Counted from the first letter of the stretch, positions 7,021 through 59,050 are shown. The stretch: 64,000 bases of DNA from a virus (IMGVR_UViG_3300025098_005131); one strand, 5' to 3'. Numbers and translations are program-made. The notes: generated by a model not told the origin, from the sequence alone.

Positions 7021-7050
7021 ATTATAATTTATTATTAATCTTAATTACAC
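7021..7050 (-). promoter_or_regulatory. phage promoter GTGTAA-N18-TATAAT
   Basis: part of a 53-bp block (7008-7060) 48/53 identical to 8180-8232. Confidence 0.75.
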
Positions 7051-8192: not shown

Positions 8193-8222
8193 ATTATATT
8201 TTATTGTTGATCTTAATTACAC
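8193..8222 (-). promoter_or_regulatory. phage promoter GTGTAA-N18-TATAAT
   Basis: upstream of radA-like gene; near-identical to 7008-7060. Confidence 0.75.
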
Positions 8223-8590: not shown

Positions 8591-8619
8591 ATTATATAAA
8601 CTTTTTAAAACAATTACAC
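8591..8619 (-). promoter_or_regulatory. phage promoter GTGTAA-N17-TATAAT
   Basis: upstream of 8569. Confidence 0.7.
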
Positions 8620-9866: not shown

Positions 9867-9895
9867 ATTGTAATAAAAAAAATAAAAAATTACAC
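9867..9895 (-). promoter_or_regulatory. phage promoter GTGTAA-N17-TACAAT
   Basis: upstream of 9841. Confidence 0.7.
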
Positions 9896-9900
9896 TTTTA

Positions 9901-10407
9901 TTAAACAAATACGCCACAGTTAACTAATGATTGCAAAACATCTAACAAAGCCTTAGCTGATGATTCTCTGCATGTAGAACCTGAGCAATCCATCATAGGC
10001 TTAAGAAACTTATCAATATCATCTGGAGTGCCCATTAAGTGTTGAGAACAGCTATCATAAGAATCTTTACATGGAACTGTATGGATTGATTGTGCTCTTG
10101 CTTTATTATAATGATCTAGAGACTCTGGATGTTCACAGTGAAATTTAATATGATCTACATATTCTTGTGTAGTTACTTGACCATTATTATTTAAGTCAAA
10201 GTGTGAATATAAGTCTTCTGGCGTAATATGACCATCACCATCCGGGTCTAAGTCGTGATGACTATTATTATGTGGTTCGCTAACAATTTTTACATCATAT
10301 GACTCCAAGGGGTTAGCCATACAATTACAATTAGGTTTTCCACACATCAAACATACATCTAAATTTGCTCTATTTAAAAACTCTCTAATTAATTTTCTTT
10401 CACTCAT
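9901..10407 (-). CDS. EF-hand calcium-binding protein, Cys-rich
   Basis: DPDGDGHITPED and DLNNNGQVTTQE loops; leader MSERKLIREFL. Confidence 0.7.
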   Translation of the reverse strand: MSERKLIREFLNRANLDVCLMCGKPNCNCMANPLESYDVKIVSEPHNNSHHDLDPDGDGHITPEDLYSHFDLNNNGQVTTQEYVDHIKFHCEHPESLDHYNKARAQSIHTVPCKDSYDSCSQHLMGTPDDIDKFLKPMMDCSGSTCRESSAKALLDVLQSLVNCGVFV

Positions 10408-10449: not shown

Positions 10450-11613
10450 TTATAATTTTTCTATGAAATTTATTTGTTGTTTATCGTGAGAATCTTTTCT
10501 GCTTTTGCCTAGTTTTATTAGTTCATTCATTTTTTCTTGTGAAGAAACTTTTTCGGAAAAATTATTGCAATTTTCTTCAGCTTTGTCTGTTAAAATGTTA
10601 ATTGACTGAAAAATGGTTTTTAATCTTTTGAGAACAAAACAAGCAATATGCGCGCTATCTTTAAATATGATTCTTTCAGGCGCTGAATGGGAGATGTCTC
10701 TTTCTAAGAGTGTAGTACAATTTTCAATTGCTGTATGCATGTAAGACTTATAAAGTCTTGTAAGGCCGCATATGTTTTCTGAAAGTATTGGGTTCTTTTT
10801 GTGAGGCATTGCACTTGATCCTTTTTGTCCTTTCGAAAAAGGTTCAGACATTTCATTTACGCCATCAATACTGTATATTCTTATGTCATAAGCAATTTTT
10901 TCTGCTGCTAAAACTACTTTAAGTATTGCATAGAAGTAATCTAAAAAAACATCTCGAGGAATAATCTGTGAACTTCTTATTGGATACAAGCCTAAAGATC
11001 GAAGAGCGTTGTTTTCGTTTCGATATGAGTTGAAAGTATTATTGCCTATTACTCCTGATAATTTTCCCCATTTCAAGCCTTTTTCTACACGAGATATTTC
11101 GTCATAACCTCTTCTTAAATAGTCTATCCATCTTAAAAAGATTTCTCTATAAGTTTGTATTTCAGCAGACTTTCCATGAGTTCGACCTAATATTCTTTTT
11201 TTAGAAAAATCTGATTTTAAAACTTTGTTTAAATGATATAAAGTATCAGCGCAGTAATTGTTAACTTGCTTTAACGATTCTTTACTCATAAGAACAAGTG
11301 AAGTATCTAATATGTCTGATGATGTTAGGCCATAATGTATCCATCTTCCAGCATTACCAGGAATAGATTCTTCTAGCATTTGCACGAAAGCTTGAACGTC
11401 GTGTCTAGTTTCTGATTCTATTTCTTTCCATCTGTCGATATTAATTGATACGTTTTCCTGAATAGTTTTTAACTCTTTTTCAGTAATTGTTTTTTCAATT
11501 ATATTACCAGAAATTGACTCTAAGTGTGCCATTTCAACTTTAAGCCATGTTTTTAATTTATTTTCTGTTTTCCATATATCATGAATTTCTTGTACTTTAT
11601 AACGTGGTATCAT
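10450..11613 (-). CDS. purB: adenylosuccinate lyase
   Basis: HDVQAF, HYGLTSSDILDT, GRTHG, GSSAMPHKKNP, ERDISHS. Confidence 0.95.
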   Translation of the reverse strand: MIPRYKVQEIHDIWKTENKLKTWLKVEMAHLESISGNIIEKTITEKELKTIQENVSINIDRWKEIESETRHDVQAFVQMLEESIPGNAGRWIHYGLTSSDILDTSLVLMSKESLKQVNNYCADTLYHLNKVLKSDFSKKRILGRTHGKSAEIQTYREIFLRWIDYLRRGYDEISRVEKGLKWGKLSGVIGNNTFNSYRNENNALRSLGLYPIRSSQIIPRDVFLDYFYAILKVVLAAEKIAYDIRIYSIDGVNEMSEPFSKGQKGSSAMPHKKNPILSENICGLTRLYKSYMHTAIENCTTLLERDISHSAPERIIFKDSAHIACFVLKRLKTIFQSINILTDKAEENCNNFSEKVSSQEKMNELIKLGKSRKDSHDKQQINFIEKL

Positions 11614-11792
11614 TTTTTCTCTTTATATTTTTCTATAGTTTCTGTTGGCAATTCAACTATTTGTTTACCTAATAATATTTCTGACAGGCTTTTAGTTTTT
11701 CTGTAAACTTCATTTATACCATACTTGATAGTTACAGGTGAATCATAGTCAAATTTATTAATAACAAGATCACCATGTTTTAACTTGCCCAA
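11610..11792 (-). CDS. small SH3/KOW-like hypothetical protein
   Basis: KHGDLVINK...YGI...EILLGKQIVEL; translationally coupled between purA and purB. Confidence 0.55.
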   Translation of the reverse strand: MGKLKHGDLVINKFDYDSPVTIKYGINEVYRKTKSLSEILLGKQIVELPTETIEKYKEKK

Positions 11793-12976
11793 ACTATTTC
11801 GCCTCTTTTAGGGCCAGTTGTATATGATATCTTATTGACTCCAGTATGTATCTCTATCTGATTTAATAATTCTGTAAAACCTGGATCAAAAGCACTTACT
11901 GTATTGATTTTAGATAACAAATAGCTTCTGCCATGAACAAACAAACTAGGTCTTTCGATATGCGTCATAACATCAGTTTTGACTACACATAAATGATCAA
12001 CACCATTTTGTTGAACAGCTCGTTTAACTTCGTCTAAATCAAGCCAGCCACATTGTCTTGGGCGACCTGTAGTTGCTCCGAACTCTTGACCAACTTCAGA
12101 AAGAACTTTTTCTTGGCCGTCTGATATTATACTTGGGAAATCGCCAGATCCAACTTTAGTTTTATAAGATTTTATAACACCAATTACCTCATCTATCTGC
12201 TTATGACTTAAACCTGTAGAATTTAAGGCACCACCTACAGAAGGTGCTGATGATGTAACATCTGGATAGTTATTTGAAAATATGTTGAGACCACTGCCTT
12301 GCGCGCCTTCTAGTAAGATATTATAGTCTTTTTTATAATAATCTTGTAGCACATTTTCATTGTTGAGACGATATAGACCAAGTATTTCAGACATTTCTTT
12401 ATATTTTAAAACCCAATTATTAAACAAGTCAAAATCTGGTTTGAGTTCTTTTAAACTTTCTCCATCTTGTGCTCTCTTTTCTTGTAAGTCAAAAAACTTT
12501 GATTGAATCTTTATAAGAGATTCTTCTGGAGAATCTACGATGTCTTTTACAAGAATAGAATCTCTAGCGTAAAAATCAGAGTAAGCAGGGCCAATTCCTT
12601 TAGCAGTTGTGCCTAGTTTCTTTTGATATTTAAGTCTGTCAATAATTTTATGTGTTGGCTCTATTATTGGGCAGTAACCAGAAACTGAAAGGTTTATGCC
12701 GGGTTTTACATTAAGGCCAGCAACTTCTTGACAAAATTCTTCTATGTCTACAACACAACCTCTTGCAATTATATTAATTACTTCTTTTGAAAGAACGCCG
12801 ACAGGCAAGATGTGTGTAACAAATTTATTTCCTCTTCTATCATAGACAGTATGTCCTGCATTTCCTCCTCCTTGAAATCTTACGACAACGTCAGCCCAAG
12901 TTTGAACTAAATCATCAACTACTCTACCTTTACCTTCGTCTCCGTGCTGGAGACCTAATACTAATTTTGTTGGCAT
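11780..12976 (-). CDS. purA: adenylosuccinate synthetase (canonical PurA, not PurZ)
   Basis: GLQHGDEGKG, QGGGNAGHT, GTTAKGIGPAYSD, EGAQG, EFGATTGRPRQCGWLD. Confidence 0.95.
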   Translation of the reverse strand: MPTKLVLGLQHGDEGKGRVVDDLVQTWADVVVRFQGGGNAGHTVYDRRGNKFVTHILPVGVLSKEVINIIARGCVVDIEEFCQEVAGLNVKPGINLSVSGYCPIIEPTHKIIDRLKYQKKLGTTAKGIGPAYSDFYARDSILVKDIVDSPEESLIKIQSKFFDLQEKRAQDGESLKELKPDFDLFNNWVLKYKEMSEILGLYRLNNENVLQDYYKKDYNILLEGAQGSGLNIFSNNYPDVTSSAPSVGGALNSTGLSHKQIDEVIGVIKSYKTKVGSGDFPSIISDGQEKVLSEVGQEFGATTGRPRQCGWLDLDEVKRAVQQNGVDHLCVVKTDVMTHIERPSLFVHGRSYLLSKINTVSAFDPGFTELLNQIEIHTGVNKISYTTGPKRGEIVWAS

Positions 12977-13632
12977 TAATTTTCTTTCTCTTCAGAATAA
13001 TCAAAGTTATTTGTTTCACCTAACAATTCGTAAGTCTCATGTGAAAATTCTCTTGGTTTGTCAAAAACTTTAAAGTCAGGTTTTTTAGGATTTTCATAGC
13101 CAAGAGAGCTATGATTCCATAAAATCTTATTATTCGGGCCACAACACAAAACGCCTAATTCGTCTTCAAAGAAAAAGTTTTTTTGCTTATGCTCTGTCCA
13201 AAATTTTGATTCTGTATAGTCAACTGAATTATTTATCTCAGGCGGTTTAAAATCAACTGTAAAGGTGTATCTTCCTCTTAGCAAAGCTTTGTTTCTATTT
13301 TTCATTGTAACATCAACGTTTTTTAAAAATGCTTTTTGATAAATTTCAGCGCTGTCTGTTATACAATCCCACCAAGCAACATCTGTTAAATCGATTTTTA
13401 CATTTGGACTTTCTTCTTTGTTGAATATTGCGCATTGTAATATTTTATCATAACAAGCATTATATTCAGGCATATAAGCTTCAAACAAAGGAGGTTCGTA
13501 CCTTGTGAATCTAACACCTACAAGGTAAGCCTCAATCATATTATGATCTTTTGCCCAAATAAAATTGCTTGAGCCTTTTAAAAAAGATTCTTTAATCCAC
13601 ACTTTTTCGTATGGTAAATTTAAATACATCAT
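12976..13632 (-). CDS. hypothetical protein within the purine operon
   Basis: 218 aa, tightly coupled to neighbours; motifs PPLFEAY, WWDC, HKQ. Confidence 0.65.
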   Translation of the reverse strand: MMYLNLPYEKVWIKESFLKGSSNFIWAKDHNMIEAYLVGVRFTRYEPPLFEAYMPEYNACYDKILQCAIFNKEESPNVKIDLTDVAWWDCITDSAEIYQKAFLKNVDVTMKNRNKALLRGRYTFTVDFKPPEINNSVDYTESKFWTEHKQKNFFFEDELGVLCCGPNNKILWNHSSLGYENPKKPDFKVFDKPREFSHETYELLGETNNFDYSEEKEN

Positions 13633-13633
13633 G

Positions 13634-14695
13634 TTATTTTTTCCTGTTAAAAATATGAGGATTACCTTCTACATGTGAAGAAGATGTTTGCTTTCGAAAT
13701 ACTGCATTGTCTATAAGCTCTTGTAAAGTATTTGCACCGCTATAAGACATTCCACTTCTTACATTTGACATTATCTCATTAATCACCTTTGAAGTAGTAC
13801 CTTTGTAAGGGACAAATGAAGCGACGCCTTCGATTGAGTTGTATGTGCCTTTCCAGTTTTTCTGTGCTGCTTTTGAAGCCATTCCGTTATAACGCTTTAA
13901 CTTTTTACCGTCTTGAGTTATTGTTTTTCCTGGCGTTTCTCTTGTTCCACTTAACATAGAACCAAGCATAACAAAATCTGCGCCTGCTGCTAATGACTTA
14001 ACAATATCACCACTATTTTTAATACCACCATCAGCAACAATATAAGGCACTAAACAATCTTTACTGTTATTTAATAGATCTTGTTTTGCCTCATAACAAT
14101 CAAGTATTGCCTGAAATGTTGGTATTCCGTGTCCTGTCTGGATTCTTGTTGTACAAATACTTCCACTCCCTACAGATGTTCGAACAGCATGCGCGCCTGC
14201 CAATGCTAAACGTTTATACGCATGACCTGTAGCAACGTTTCCTGCCATGACAAATAGATGTGGATATTCACTCCTGATAAATTCTATTGCTTTTTCCATA
14301 AGAATATGATCACCGTGAGCAATGTCAATACAGACAATACTTAAATCATTTCTAGAAAGCTCTGATAATCTTTCTTTGTAATCTCCAGTTGCACCAATCG
14401 CTGCAGCTCTATAATCTCTATGATTAACATATCCTAAGAGTTTTGCTTGAAACTCAATTGTATTATACCTGTGAATAATACCTAGTCCACCTTGACTGAT
14501 CATCGCATTAGACATATGCGCTTCAGTTACTGTTGACATAGGAGAGCTGATAATTGGTATTTTAAATTTTAAATTCTTGCCAGAATATTTTACATTAACA
14601 CAAGTATCAATATTCTTTCTAGTTATTAACTCTGAGTATTGAGGTTCTAAAATTACATCATCAAAACTTAATACTTCTTTTTTATTAATTCTCAT
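13634..14695 (-). CDS. IMPDH/GMP reductase family enzyme without CBS domains (GMP reductase favoured)
   Basis: PIISSPMSTV, DIAHG, GSGSICTTR (catalytic Cys), ADGGIK, YNGMAS, EG..PYKG; flap lacks the IMPDH Arg-Tyr dyad. Confidence 0.9.
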   Translation of the reverse strand: MRINKKEVLSFDDVILEPQYSELITRKNIDTCVNVKYSGKNLKFKIPIISSPMSTVTEAHMSNAMISQGGLGIIHRYNTIEFQAKLLGYVNHRDYRAAAIGATGDYKERLSELSRNDLSIVCIDIAHGDHILMEKAIEFIRSEYPHLFVMAGNVATGHAYKRLALAGAHAVRTSVGSGSICTTRIQTGHGIPTFQAILDCYEAKQDLLNNSKDCLVPYIVADGGIKNSGDIVKSLAAGADFVMLGSMLSGTRETPGKTITQDGKKLKRYNGMASKAAQKNWKGTYNSIEGVASFVPYKGTTSKVINEIMSNVRSGMSYSGANTLQELIDNAVFRKQTSSSHVEGNPHIFNRKK

Positions 14696-14716
14696 TTAAT
14701 TCCTCTTTATAGTATT

Positions 14717-14745
14717 AGTGTATATAAATAATTTTTTATTTACAC
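14717..14745 (-). promoter_or_regulatory. phage promoter GTGTAA-N17-TACACT heading the purine operon
   Basis: upstream of 14695, GAGGA RBS. Confidence 0.65.
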
Positions 14746-51551: not shown

Positions 51552-51971
51552 TTAGTCTAAATATGACCTTACTTTTAAATTTGCTTCTTTAAGAATATTT
51601 ACTCCACCTAGATCTCTATAAGGTTTTAAGTAAATGACTTCTTCTATTTTGCTATTTACTATAGCTTTCGCACAATATTCACACGGGCTAAGAGTTAAAT
51701 ACATTTTTTTTGTCTTCGGGTTGTTGTAGTCCAATTTTAACAGTGCGTTAATTTCAGCATGCAGCAAACCACTACAACCAGGTTCTTCAGATTGAGGTGC
51801 GTTTGACATACCAGCAGCATTACCATTATACCCTAAAGAAAGCACTTGTGTATTATCTGACGTCACTATAAGTGCCCCTACCTTAAATGTGGAATGATGG
51901 CTTCGTTGTGCTATTGTTTCTGCCATTTGCATCCAAATTTTATCCCAAGATGGCCTATTTATATTTACCAT
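51552..51971 (-). CDS. dCMP deaminase
   Basis: KVGALIV, GYNG, HAEINA, SPCEYC. Confidence 0.92.
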   Translation of the reverse strand: MVNINRPSWDKIWMQMAETIAQRSHHSTFKVGALIVTSDNTQVLSLGYNGNAAGMSNAPQSEEPGCSGLLHAEINALLKLDYNNPKTKKMYLTLSPCEYCAKAIVNSKIEEVIYLKPYRDLGGVNILKEANLKVRSYLD

Positions 51972-53429: not shown

Positions 53430-53996
53430 TTATTTCTCTTTAAATGTAGTGTAATGTTTTGAACATCTTGGCTCATACATTCCAAACGAACCAACACGCT
53501 CTTCAGCAGTTGCATTATTTATATCGAACATTGCCTCAGTAAAGTAAGCATCTTGATCGCACATGGTGCAAACAGCCGGACAAATTTCAATTTTTGTTGC
53601 CCAAGGCATCATGTTTTTTATATTTTGAAAAGGTATTTCGTTTGCGTCTAATTGAATTGATGACACAATTATATTAACACCTTTACGATACAAAGAAATC
53701 AAAACAGAGTCAATATCCTGAATCATAAAAGCTTCATCAACCGCTACTATTGTATTTGAATTATGCATATCTTCATTTACATAACGCAATATTTCTTCTG
53801 CATGATTTATACAGAATGCTGGGTAAGTTGCACCGGTATGGGTGCTAATCGTTTCTTTTGTATAACGCTTATCTTTATTTGCTTTAAAAGCTACAACTTG
53901 ACGACCTTTATATAAGGCTCTATCAATATCAGACATTAGTCTTGTTGTTTTTGATCCAAACATTGGGCCAGTATAAATTATAAATTGTGGGTTCAT
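53430..53996 (-). CDS. tdk: thymidine kinase (TK1 type)
   Basis: YTGPMFGSKTT, STHTG, VDEAF, CTMC, YEPRC. Confidence 0.92.
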   Translation of the reverse strand: MNPQFIIYTGPMFGSKTTRLMSDIDRALYKGRQVVAFKANKDKRYTKETISTHTGATYPAFCINHAEEILRYVNEDMHNSNTIVAVDEAFMIQDIDSVLISLYRKGVNIIVSSIQLDANEIPFQNIKNMMPWATKIEICPAVCTMCDQDAYFTEAMFDINNATAEERVGSFGMYEPRCSKHYTTFKEK

Positions 53997-59021: not shown

Positions 59022-59050
59022 ATTATATTTAATTAATAATTAATTTACAC
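59022..59050 (-). promoter_or_regulatory. phage promoter GTGTAA-N17-TATAAT upstream of dnaE
   Basis: exact motif. Confidence 0.75.

What the first reader, a model, noticed from the sequence alone, without database searches (positions are those of the whole stretch)
10450..14745. GMPR-PurA-PurB operon: a probable GMP-to-AMP funnel for an AT-rich phage
Seen: one promoter drives an IMPDH/GMPR-family gene, an unknown gene, purA, a small ORF and purB. The IMPDH/GMPR flap (GMASKAAQKNWKGTYNSIEG) is short and lacks the Arg-Tyr dyad, and no guaA is present in the window. Known: IMPDH needs that dyad, while GMP reductases have short flaps; GMPR, PurA and PurB convert GMP to IMP to adenylosuccinate to AMP. 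Inference: the phage (about 30% GC) recycles guanine nucleotides of a GC-rich host into adenine nucleotides, mirrored by dCMP deaminase and TK on the C-to-T side.
Basis: partly seen in the sequence, partly recalled or inferred. Interest (0 to 1): 0.75.

Follow-up and report, generated by a model that had tools for sequence, protein, structure and literature searches.

The report
Phage guanine-to-adenine nucleotide conversion operon
An uncultured AT-rich marine giant phage and its relatives always carry three adjoining genes (a GMP-reductase-like enzyme, PurA and PurB) that together could turn guanine nucleotides into adenine nucleotides; the first enzyme belongs to a virus-specific branch that nobody has assayed.

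Summary
On the minus strand a phage-type promoter motif (14745-14717) precedes five tightly packed genes: an IMPDH/GMPR-fold enzyme (353 aa), a 218-aa ORF, purA, a 60-aa ORF and purB.

- **Flap:** it is as quoted, 20 residues long, with no Arg-Tyr dyad and no CBS domain. Five labelled GuaB enzymes all carry GS[SK][DS]RYFQ. Labelled GMP reductases and a tubercidin-cluster (TubD-like) homologue have short flaps without RY.
- **Placement:** the enzyme is not an orthologue of GuaC or GuaB. It scores below every curated cut-off and sits in a metagenome-only, apparently virus-specific clade on the IMPDH side of the family.
- **Conserved core:** the trio occurs in the same order in all 14 related IMG/VR loci. 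The 218-aa ORF is an accessory insertion absent from all of them.
- **Relative's gene content:** a complete 239.6-kb relative has no guaA, phosphoribosyltransferase, SAICAR synthase or 7-deazaguanine genes, but it does have ribonucleotide reductase.
- **PurA:** it keeps Asp13 and Arg303, so it is not PurZ.

GMP to IMP to AMP is the best reading (about 0.6) and is untested. The GC-rich host claim is unsupported and not needed. First readers of this scan noted the same module on other genomes. I found no paper describing it. It is a new variant of a known kind, of moderate interest.

The parts
14717..14745 (-). Phage-type promoter-like motif GTGTAA-N17-TACACT, 22 nt upstream of the first gene
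   Evidence: The motif occurs 16 times in the window against 3.2 expected, mostly in intergenic spacers ahead of minus-strand genes. Sequence read. Function not shown.
13634..14695 (-). IMPDH/GMPR-fold enzyme, 353 aa, without a CBS domain, with a 20-residue flap lacking Arg-Tyr; predicted GMP reductase (GMP + NADPH to IMP + NH3)
   Evidence: PF00478, E 4e-96. All NCBIfam equivalogs are below cut-off. Cys181, Thr183 and Glu289 are invariant, and the flap is short. It falls in a metagenome-only clade. The AF2 model has pLDDT 82 and TM 0.8 to engineered CBS-deleted IMPDH catalytic domains.
12976..13632 (-). 218-aa accessory ORF inserted seamlessly between the reductase-like gene and purA; tandem small beta-barrel fold, function unknown
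   Evidence: No Pfam or NCBIfam family. Absent from the complete relative G001 and from all 14 IMG/VR loci. Homologues sit in unrelated phage contexts. Model pLDDT 82 with no informative structural match.
11780..12976 (-). PurA, adenylosuccinate synthetase, 398 aa (IMP + Asp + GTP to adenylosuccinate)
   Evidence: PF00709, E 1.9e-94. The PurA model scores 308 bits and the PurZ model 122. GDEGKG with Asp13, Asn38, His41, Gln224, TTGRPR (Arg303), KTD and TGPKR all align with E. coli PurA.
11610..11792 (-). 60-aa ORF (TTG start) overlapping purA and purB; variable small gene
   Evidence: Weak homologues at the same position in L007, L015 and L020 only (31-37% identity, E 1e-5 to 1e-7). No family.
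10450..11613 (-). PurB, adenylosuccinate lyase, 387 aa (adenylosuccinate to AMP + fumarate), with a short C-terminus
   Evidence: TIGR00928 scores 291 bits against a cut-off of 326; Lyase_1 E 2e-29. The motifs RHDV, RTHG and GSSAMPHKKNP are kept. About 45 C-terminal residues are missing compared with E. coli PurB.
9901..10407 (-). EF-hand protein, 168 aa, probably the last gene of the same transcription unit (context only)
   Evidence: EF-hand_1, E 2.4e-7. No GTGTAA-type promoter lies between 14717 and 9895 on the minus strand.
51552..51971 (-). dCMP deaminase (context for the pyrimidine side)
   Evidence: PF00383, E 3.1e-22.
53430..53996 (-). Thymidine kinase (context)
   Evidence: PF00265, E 2.7e-32.

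Best explanation
The conserved trio is a phage-encoded purine interconversion route that works on ribonucleotides.

1. **Reductase-like step (inferred).** The CBS-less, short-flap IMPDH/GMPR-fold enzyme reductively deaminates GMP to IMP. The proposed mechanism is attack by Cys181 on C2, loss of ammonia helped by Thr183 and Glu289, and reduction of the covalent E-XMP* intermediate by NADPH. The flap has no water-activating Arg-Tyr, so hydrolysis to XMP is not favoured.
2. **PurA step.** PurA condenses IMP with aspartate at the cost of GTP.
3. **PurB step.** PurB releases AMP and fumarate.

AMP then passes through kinases and the phage ribonucleotide reductase to dATP. The net effect is to shift guanylate, for example from degraded host RNA, into adenylate for a genome that needs about 2.1-2.4 A per G. 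The enzymes lack the host's allosteric CBS control.

**Shown:** gene identities, catalytic motifs, flap anatomy, conservation of the trio, and absence of guaA in a complete relative.

**Inferred:** substrate, cofactor, direction and physiological purpose.
For: - **Flap and domain.** The flap is 20 residues with no Arg-Tyr and there is no CBS domain. All five labelled GuaB references carry GS[SK][DS]RYFQ. All labelled GMPRs of both types and the TubD-like protein have short flaps without RY.
- **Literature on the flap.** GMPR lacks the dyad and has a truncated flap, and Arg418 substitutions slow hydrolysis about 1000-fold (PMC2525682).
- **Catalytic residues.** Cys181, Thr183 and Glu289 are invariant, and the flap itself is strictly conserved in the clade.
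- **Precedent.** TubD is a CBS-less protein of this family and is an NADPH- and K+-dependent GMP reductase in vitro (PMC6112128). A Bradyrhizobium homologue lying in a tubercidin-type gene cluster groups with the IMPDH side of my tree.
- **Conservation.** The trio occurs in the same order in 14 of 14 IMG/VR loci at 65-95% identity.
- **Gene content of the complete relative G001.** It has no guaA, one IMPDH-family gene only, no SAICAR synthase, no phosphoribosyltransferase, and a ribonucleotide reductase.
- **PurA and PurB.** Their catalytic residues are intact.
- **Composition.** The genomes are 29-32% GC, which means an A:G demand of 2.1-2.4.
- **Cultured phages.** Four with family members encode no guaA either.
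Against: - No member of this viral clade has been assayed.
- By sequence and fold the enzyme is nearer to IMPDH than to GuaC: 41% against 32% identity, 247 against 180 bits in PDB, and the best structural matches are IMPDH catalytic domains.
- It lies outside both GuaC clades and below all curated GMPR cut-offs.
- IMP is the shared metabolite whichever direction the enzyme runs, so the operon context does not fix the direction.
- Distant family members usually stand alone, without purA or purB.
- The host, the pool sizes and the expression of the genes are unknown.
Confidence: 0.6

Rival explanations
1. The first enzyme is a minimal IMP dehydrogenase. The operon would then boost both branches from IMP: XMP and GMP through host GuaA, and AMP through PurA and PurB. 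It would raise total purine nucleotide supply rather than convert G to A.
For: - The enzyme is most similar to IMPDHs in sequence and fold.
- The top NCBIfam score is for IMPDH, 273 bits.
- The C-terminal EGNPH resembles the IMPDH tail.
- CBS-poor IMPDHs exist, for example the 404-aa Borrelia enzyme.
- IMPDH retains a slow Thr/Glu water-activation path without Arg418 (PMC2525682).
Against: [quoted passage not shown]
- The IMPDH score is far below its cut-off, 273 against 481.5.
- No guaA is found in the window, in the complete relative or in four cultured phages with family members.
- The relative has no de novo purine genes to supply extra IMP.
Confidence: 0.13
2. The trio acts on a non-canonical guanylate. 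One option is deoxy-level conversion, dGMP to dIMP to dAMP, reusing host DNA breakdown products. The other is a modified guanine nucleotide, following ToyE/ToyG/ToyF and TubD logic for 7-deazapurines, to give an unusual adenine analogue.
For: - GMPR-like plus PurA plus PurB is the enzyme set that turns 7-deaza-GMP analogues into 7-deaza-AMP analogues in toyocamycin and tubercidin pathways (PMC6112128).
- A Bradyrhizobium homologue sits with folE, queD, queE, a phosphoribosyltransferase and a UbiD decarboxylase.
- PurZ shows that phage PurA homologues can switch to dGMP (PMC8342488).
- The pyrimidine counterpart, dCMP deaminase, works at the deoxy level.
Against: - tblastn with FolE, QueD, QueE, phosphoribosyltransferase and UbiD queries found nothing in the window or in the complete relative G001.
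- HMM searches for QueD (PTPS), QueC and TGT/DpdA found nothing in G001 or in two partial relatives.
- No phosphoribosyltransferase is found in G001.
- PurA keeps Asp13 and, in its normal motif, Arg303, which contacts the 2'-OH of IMP. PurZ has Ser at the Asp13 position and a displaced Arg.
Confidence: 0.1
3. The direction is as in the best explanation, but the purpose is to bypass regulation rather than to match base composition. Phage copies without a CBS domain, and possibly insensitive to feedback, would keep AMP and ATP synthesis running when the starved or infected host shuts down its own PurA and GuaC.
For: - There is no CBS domain, the element that mediates ATP/GTP control in GMPRs and IMPDHs (PMC13249884).
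- PurA and PurB duplicate host functions.
- The trio sits behind an early-type phage promoter motif.
Against: Nothing here tests regulation. This reading is compatible with the composition argument rather than opposed to it. All carriers seen are AT-rich, 29-38% GC.
Confidence: 0.12

Closest known systems
GuaC GMP reductases, type 1 (E. coli, human GMPR1/2; TIGR01305, NF003470) and type 2 (Bacillus, Enterococcus; TIGR01306, NF003966)
   Same: (beta/alpha)8 fold without a CBS domain, the Cys-Thr-Glu catalytic set, a short flap without Arg-Tyr, and the predicted reaction GMP to IMP (PMC2525682).
   Different: Only 30-33% identical. Below all curated cut-offs. Separate long-branch clades in the tree. 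The flap motif is GMAS..AQ..W[KR]G rather than GMSS..AM and is 3 residues shorter. The C-terminal tail is IMPDH-like.
TubD and ToyE, the IMPDH/GMPR-family reductive deaminases of tubercidin and toyocamycin biosynthesis (PMC6112128)
   Same: CBS-less proteins on the IMPDH side of the family. TubD has proven NADPH-dependent GMP-to-IMP activity. They work upstream of PurA- and PurB-type steps (ToyG/ToyF, or borrowed host PurA/PurB).
   Different: About 35% identity to the Bradyrhizobium TubD-like homologue and a different clade. The phage and its relative carry none of the 7-deazaguanine genes that define those clusters.
Bacterial IMP dehydrogenase GuaB (TIGR01302)
   Same: Highest sequence and structural similarity: 38-41% identity and TM 0.8 to CBS-deleted catalytic domains. 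The GSGSICTTR Cys loop and the C-terminal E-x-x-x-H tail are shared.
   Different: No Bateman domain, a flap about 10 residues shorter, no Arg-Tyr dyad, 273 bits against a cut-off of 481.5, and no guaA partner.
Annotated 'GMP reductase' genes of cultured large phages (Xanthomonas XacN1, Bacillus phage G gp120, Caulobacter Cr30, Thermus phiYS40, Microcystis Mel-JY01)
   Same: Phage-borne members of the family with short flaps, often among dNTP-synthesis genes. Those checked (phiYS40, phage G, Mel-JY01) are AT-rich, and phiYS40 is 33% GC.
   Different: At most 37% identical. XacN1 and phage G fall in the cellular GuaC clades. None of the four searched encodes purA or guaA, so they have no operon with purA and purB.
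PurZ/PurB 2-aminoadenine pathway of S-2L, phiVC8 and actinophages
   Same: A phage-encoded PurA homologue working with an adenylosuccinate lyase to change the purine make-up of phage DNA.
   Different: Here Asp13 and Arg303 are kept, the PurZ model scores 122 bits against a cut-off of 300, and the window's matches to the actinophage PurA-like (PurZ-type) genes are only 25-30% identical.

Membership tests
GMP reductase GuaC (types 1 and 2) | Score above the curated equivalog cut-off | tested here: not met
   NF003470 230 against 397, TIGR01305 203 against 492, NF003966 201 against 344, TIGR01306 168 against 466.
GMP reductase GuaC (types 1 and 2) | Falls inside a GuaC clade in a family tree | tested here: not met
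   Both GuaC types are separate long branches. The window clade (support 100) lies inside a metagenome-only clade of 37 rows (support 96) (quick search, SH-aLRT only).
GMP reductase (function) | Catalytic Cys, Thr and Glu (E. coli Cys186, Thr188, Glu289) | tested here: met
   C181, T183 and E289 are invariant against GuaC, GuaB and clade members. Their necessity is shown in PMC2525682.
GMP reductase (function) | Truncated flap without the Arg-Tyr dyad | tested here: met
   The flap is 20 residues from GM to EG with no RY. The same holds for all labelled GMPRs.
GMP reductase (function) | [quoted passage not shown] | not testable with these tools
   Needs an enzyme assay or complementation.
IMP dehydrogenase GuaB | Arg-Tyr dyad on a long mobile flap | tested here: not met
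   KGTY aligns where IMPDHs have DRY, and the flap is about 10 residues shorter.
IMP dehydrogenase GuaB | Score above the TIGR01302 cut-off | tested here: not met
   273 against 481.5 bits.
IMP dehydrogenase GuaB | A GMP synthase partner to use the XMP | tested here: not met
   No PF00958 match in the complete relative G001 (control positive in 14 of 14 genomes). No tblastn hit of E. coli GuaA in the window or G001. The rest of the window's own 278-kb genome was not searched.
Adenylosuccinate synthetase PurA | Family model and catalytic residues (Asp13, Lys16, Asn38, His41, Gln224, Arg303, the KxD guanine-specificity motif) | tested here: met
   PF00709, E 1.9e-94. All named residues align with E. 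coli PurA. The NCBIfam equivalog is below cut-off, 308.6 against 402, with a deletion of about 25 residues near the C-terminus.
PurZ (2-aminoadenylosuccinate synthase) | Ser or Gly replacing Asp13, and a displaced Arg303 equivalent | tested here: not met
   GDEGKG and TTGRPR are kept. The PurZ model scores 122 against 300. Criteria taken from PMC12884076 and PMC8342488.
Adenylosuccinate lyase PurB | Fumarase/aspartase superfamily signature SSxMPxKxN with the catalytic Ser and the two His motifs | tested here: met
   GSSAMPHKKNP, RTHG and RHDV are present. TIGR00928 scores 291 against 326, slightly below cut-off. The C-terminal domain is short and no ADSL_C hit was found.
7-Deazapurine (Toy/Tub-type) pathway | Accompanying FolE, QueD, QueE and QueC plus a phosphoribosyltransferase, or a DpdA/TGT | tested here: not met
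   No tblastn hits in the window or G001. No PTPS, QueC or TGT HMM hits and no Pribosyltran hit, with controls positive in 10 to 14 of the 14 named genomes.

The most novel reading that the evidence does not exclude
The short-flap, CBS-less viral clade would be a third, virus-specific lineage of purine C2 reductive deaminases. It would have arisen from the IMPDH side independently of GuaC. Its true substrate would not be plain GMP but dGMP or another guanylate derivative. The trio would then convert purines at the deoxy or modified level, feeding phage DNA directly from host DNA breakdown products, as a purine counterpart of dCMP deaminase.
Probability: 0.1. Interest if true: 0.8.

Novelty: new variant of a known kind. 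Interest (0 to 1): 0.55.

Why it matters
**If the trio works as read.** Large marine phages would not only boost nucleotide supply but also re-proportion the purine pool toward their own AT-rich composition. Metabolic reprogramming by phages has mostly been discussed for pyrimidines (dCMP deaminase, thymidylate synthase) and for exotic bases (PurZ).

**How common it is.** The module is abundant. More than 120 protein clusters of at least 64% identity come from many marine metagenomes, and it is conserved in a whole clade of giant phages.

**An unassayed enzyme family.** The finding exposes a very large, virus-dominated branch of the IMPDH/GMPR family. There were 11,932 representative clusters with E up to 0.001, and the top hits are almost all 330-360 aa with short flaps. 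Public annotation calls these proteins 'IMP dehydrogenase' or 'GMP reductase' without consistency. One assay would fix the annotation of thousands of viral genes.

Tried and rejected
- **The 218-aa ORF as a pathway enzyme: rejected.** It is absent from the complete relative and from all 14 IMG/VR loci. Its homologues lie in unrelated phage contexts. It has no paralogue in the window or in G001. Its fold is tandem small beta-barrels with no informative match in PDB or AlphaFold DB clusters.\n- **7-deazapurine reading: no supporting genes**.\n- **PurZ / 2-aminoadenine reading: rejected**.\n- **Sigma-70 promoter and terminator scan:** not above chance, 30 against 27.7 promoter-like sites and 3 against 2.3 terminator-like sites.\n- **Host identification.** The first genome-contig scan found nothing. 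The second found one Omnitrophota MAG contig that itself looks like a phage. One 83%-identical protein is filed under a Flavobacteriia MAG. Neither identifies a host.\n- **Structure of the reductase-like enzyme.** The fold cannot separate IMPDH from GMPR. The Cys loop, the flap and the C-terminal tail are modelled at low confidence.\n- **Nucleotide search of cultured phages.** Only a 113-bp match was found. No cultured phage has the trio.\n- **Expression.** No RNA holder was listed for the whole stretch. Two oligo-dT marine RNA runs hold only short contigs, 151-214 nt, over parts of the reductase-like gene and of relatives' genes. That does not show transcription.\n- **Literature.** Four searches of the held paper library that named phages or viruses found no description of a phage GMPR-purA-purB module. 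The library lacks most subscription journals.\n- **Not searched.** The remaining roughly 214 kb of the window's own genome could not be searched, because no whole genome is held.

Full report
**What is there**

The window is about 32% GC. It carries a Pol III alpha-type polymerase, a GroEL-type chaperonin, an ATP-dependent ligase, a sigma factor, thymidine kinase, dCMP deaminase and many unknown large proteins. That is the gene content of a large phage. The reductase-like protein is found on contigs of up to 277,787 bp from marine metagenomes.

Between 14745 and 10450 on the minus strand lie, in order:

| Coordinates | Feature | Evidence |
|---|---|---|
| 14745..14717 | promoter-like motif GTGTAA-N17-TACACT | |
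| 14695..13634 | IMPDH/GMPR-fold protein, 353 aa | |
| 13632..12976 | ORF of 218 aa, no family | |
| 12976..11780 | purA | |
| 11792..11610 | ORF of 60 aa, TTG start | |
| 11613..10450 | purB | |

The genes abut or overlap. The motif GTGTAA-N16-18-TANNNT is enriched, with 16 copies against 3.2 expected, mostly ahead of minus-strand genes. A plain sigma-70 scan is no better than chance. The next minus-strand copy is at 9895, so the EF-hand gene 10407..9901 probably belongs to the same unit. Earlier notes of this scan pointed me to the motif, and I tested it myself. Transcription is not shown.

**The conserved unit is a trio**

A colinear relative with direct terminal repeats is rated 100% complete (G001, 239,550 bp, 29% GC). 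It lacks the 218-aa ORF: its reductase-like gene ends 2 nt before purA. All 14 IMG/VR loci, at 65-95% identity of the first protein, have the reductase-like gene, purA and purB in this order and none has the 218-aa ORF. The 60-aa ORF is detectable in three of them.

Homologues of the 218-aa protein occur in other phage contigs in unrelated neighbourhoods. Its predicted fold is tandem small beta-barrels and gave no informative match. It is an accessory insertion, not a pathway member.

**IMPDH or GMP reductase?**

- The protein has the Cys loop GSGSICTTR, with Cys181, Thr183 and Glu289 invariant. It has no CBS insert.
- The flap, GMASKAAQKNWKGTYNSIEG, is 20 residues from GM to EG. The E. coli GuaC flap is 23 residues and the E. 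coli GuaB flap about 30, with SDRY.
- In a wider alignment all five labelled GuaB proteins (E. coli, B. subtilis, Borreliella, Saprospira, Legionella) carry GS[SK][DS]RYFQ. All labelled GMP reductases, the Bradyrhizobium TubD-like protein and the window clade are short and lack RY.
- Min et al. (PMC2525682) state that Arg418 substitutions slow E-XMP* hydrolysis about 1000-fold, that GMPR lacks the dyad and has a truncated flap, and that the Cys/Thr/Glu set is needed for GMPR.

**It is not a GuaC orthologue**

- Every curated NCBIfam model is below cut-off: IMPDH 273 against 481.5, and GMPR models 230 against 397, 203 against 492, 201 against 344 and 168 against 466.
- Identity is 41% to E. coli GuaB and 32% to GuaC.
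- PDB sequence hits are led by IMPDHs at 247 bits, against 180 bits for human GMPR2.
- The AlphaFold model (pLDDT 82) best matches engineered CBS-deleted IMPDH catalytic domains at TM 0.8.
- In a 90-row tree (quick IQ-TREE, SH-aLRT only) the window clade (support 100) lies inside a metagenome-only clade of 37 rows (support 96).
- In the same tree canonical GuaBs form one clade (support 99) that joins the Haloarcula short form and the TubD-like protein (support 96). GuaC type 1 (with phage XacN1) and type 2 (with phage G gp120) are separate long branches.

An exhaustive search found a very large set of 330-360-aa proteins with the flap GMAS..AQ..W[RK]G....EG. Those whose contigs I inspected are phage-like, next to dUTPase, thioredoxin, ThyX, RNR, DnaE and GroEL. 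Pattern scans of one genome for each of 185,579 prokaryote species found a single hit. It is an Omnitrophota MAG contig that itself looks like a phage. The enzyme thus belongs to an unassayed, apparently virus-specific branch.

The useful precedent is TubD. It is a CBS-less family member and is an NADPH- and K+-dependent GMP reductase in vitro (PMC6112128).

**PurA and PurB**

PurA keeps GDEGKG (Asp13, Lys16), Asn38, His41, Gln224, TTGRPR (Arg303), KTD and TGPKR against E. coli PurA, with a deletion of about 25 residues near the C-terminus. PurZ enzymes have Ser or Gly at the Asp13 position and a displaced Arg303 equivalent, and Arg303 contacts the 2'-oxygen of IMP (PMC12884076, PMC8342488). 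The PurZ model scores 122 against a cut-off of 300. This is a ribonucleotide PurA, not PurZ.

PurB keeps RHDV, RTHG and GSSAMPHKKNP but is about 45 residues shorter at the C-terminus than E. coli PurB. It scores just under the purB cut-off, 291 against 326.

**Context tests on the complete relative**

G001 has:
- no GMP synthase C-domain (E. coli GuaA also gives no tblastn hit)
- one IMPDH-family gene only
- no phosphoribosyltransferase and no SAICAR synthase
- a ribonucleotide reductase

PurB therefore has no phage partner from the de novo purine pathway. The trio reads as a self-contained GMP to IMP to adenylosuccinate to AMP route that feeds the reductase.

**The 7-deazapurine alternative**

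The same three enzyme types convert 7-deazaguanine nucleotides to 7-deazaadenine nucleotides in toyocamycin and tubercidin pathways. I met this lead through the Bradyrhizobium homologue, which sits with folE, queD, queE, a phosphoribosyltransferase and a UbiD decarboxylase. I therefore searched for FolE, QueD, QueE, QueC and TGT. None is present.

**Purpose and host**

The window and G001 need 2.1 and 2.4 A per G in DNA. The genes are fully adapted to the phage composition, with GC3 about 0.2.

The GC-rich host is not supported by anything I could test. No host was identified, and all related loci are 29-34% GC. Earlier first-reader notes suggest a GC mismatch, from tRNAs for A-ending codons and from Myxococcota-like proteins, but I did not test them.

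One cultured example fits the idea. Thermus phage phiYS40 (33% GC over 17 kb) has a short-flap family member among dUTPase, ThyX and TK genes. Its host, Thermus thermophilus, is very GC-rich (my knowledge). It has no purA.

The funnel does not need a GC-rich host. Ribosomal RNA, the main nucleotide store of any cell, is roughly half G+C (my knowledge).

A complementary purpose is escape from host regulation. CBS domains mediate ATP/GTP control in this family (PMC13249884) and are absent here.

**Novelty**

GMP-reductase-like genes are already annotated in several cultured large phages, at no more than 37% identity. Four of them have neither purA nor guaA. In cultured phage records purA hits are PurZ-type or host contamination, and purB is rare. 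The paper searches that named phages or viruses found no description of the trio. First readers of this scan noted the same module on other genomes, and it is common in marine metagenomes.

**Verdict**

I give about 0.6 to the G-to-A reading, 0.13 to IMPDH, 0.1 to a non-canonical substrate and 0.12 to regulation bypass as the main purpose. It is a new variant of a known kind of phage nucleotide-metabolism module. Interest is 0.55.

Noticed in passing
window 12976-13632 (-): A 218-aa ORF is inserted seamlessly between two genes that abut in all relatives (1-nt gap upstream, 1-nt overlap downstream, no promoter of its own). Its predicted fold is tandem small beta-barrels. About 30 homologous clusters exist, all unnamed.
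   Followed up: yes
window, 16 sites (e.g. 7021-7050, 8193-8222, 8591-8619, 9867-9895, 14717-14745, 32644-32673, 59022-59050): The motif GTGTAA-N16-18-TANNNT occurs 16 times against 3.2 expected, mostly just upstream of minus-strand genes. It is a phage-specific promoter type already noted by this scan.
   Followed up: partly
proteins P0165, P0168, P0185, P0188, P0213, P0215, P0218 and others: Many family members are 690-725 aa, with the IMPDH-like domain split into two matched stretches around an insert of about 350 aa. This may be an intein or another mobile insertion in the catalytic domain.
   Followed up: no
G001:C1:67492-70118 (-): The ribonucleotide reductase large subunit of the complete relative matches in three pieces, one of them with an internal TAA. 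The gene is split or interrupted, possibly by an intron, intein or homing element.
   Followed up: no
L036:1483-6613 (Bradyrhizobium barranii plasmid pBb1S5a): A tubercidin-like 7-deazapurine cluster on a rhizobial plasmid: queD, folE, an IMPDH/GMPR-family gene, a phosphoribosyltransferase, a UbiD-family decarboxylase and queE.
   Followed up: partly
L053 (Candidatus Omnitrophota MAG contig JAJDCA010000037.1, 154,790 bp): The only hit in the species-representative genomes looks like a large phage contig binned into a MAG. It carries ThyX, the short-flap IMPDH-like gene, a class II-type RNR, dUTPase, a sigma factor and a collagen-repeat protein.
   Followed up: partly
window 10450-11613 (-): The phage PurB and its relatives lack about 45 C-terminal residues present in E. 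coli PurB, and Pfam finds no ADSL_C domain. Whether the tetramer and the active site are complete is unknown.
   Followed up: partly
plasmid collection hits H117-H136: Orthologous cp26 guaB genes of Borreliella are named 'IMP dehydrogenase' in some records and 'guanosine monophosphate reductase' in others. The latter automatic name is not evidence of function for short family members, including the Flavobacteriia-MAG protein that is 83% identical to the window's.
   Followed up: no
L055:7914-9023 (Thermus phage phiYS40): A 33% GC phage of a very GC-rich host carries a short-flap family member (GMASQYAKQNKENVEGEG) beside dUTPase, ThyX and TK genes, without purA or guaA.
   Followed up: partly
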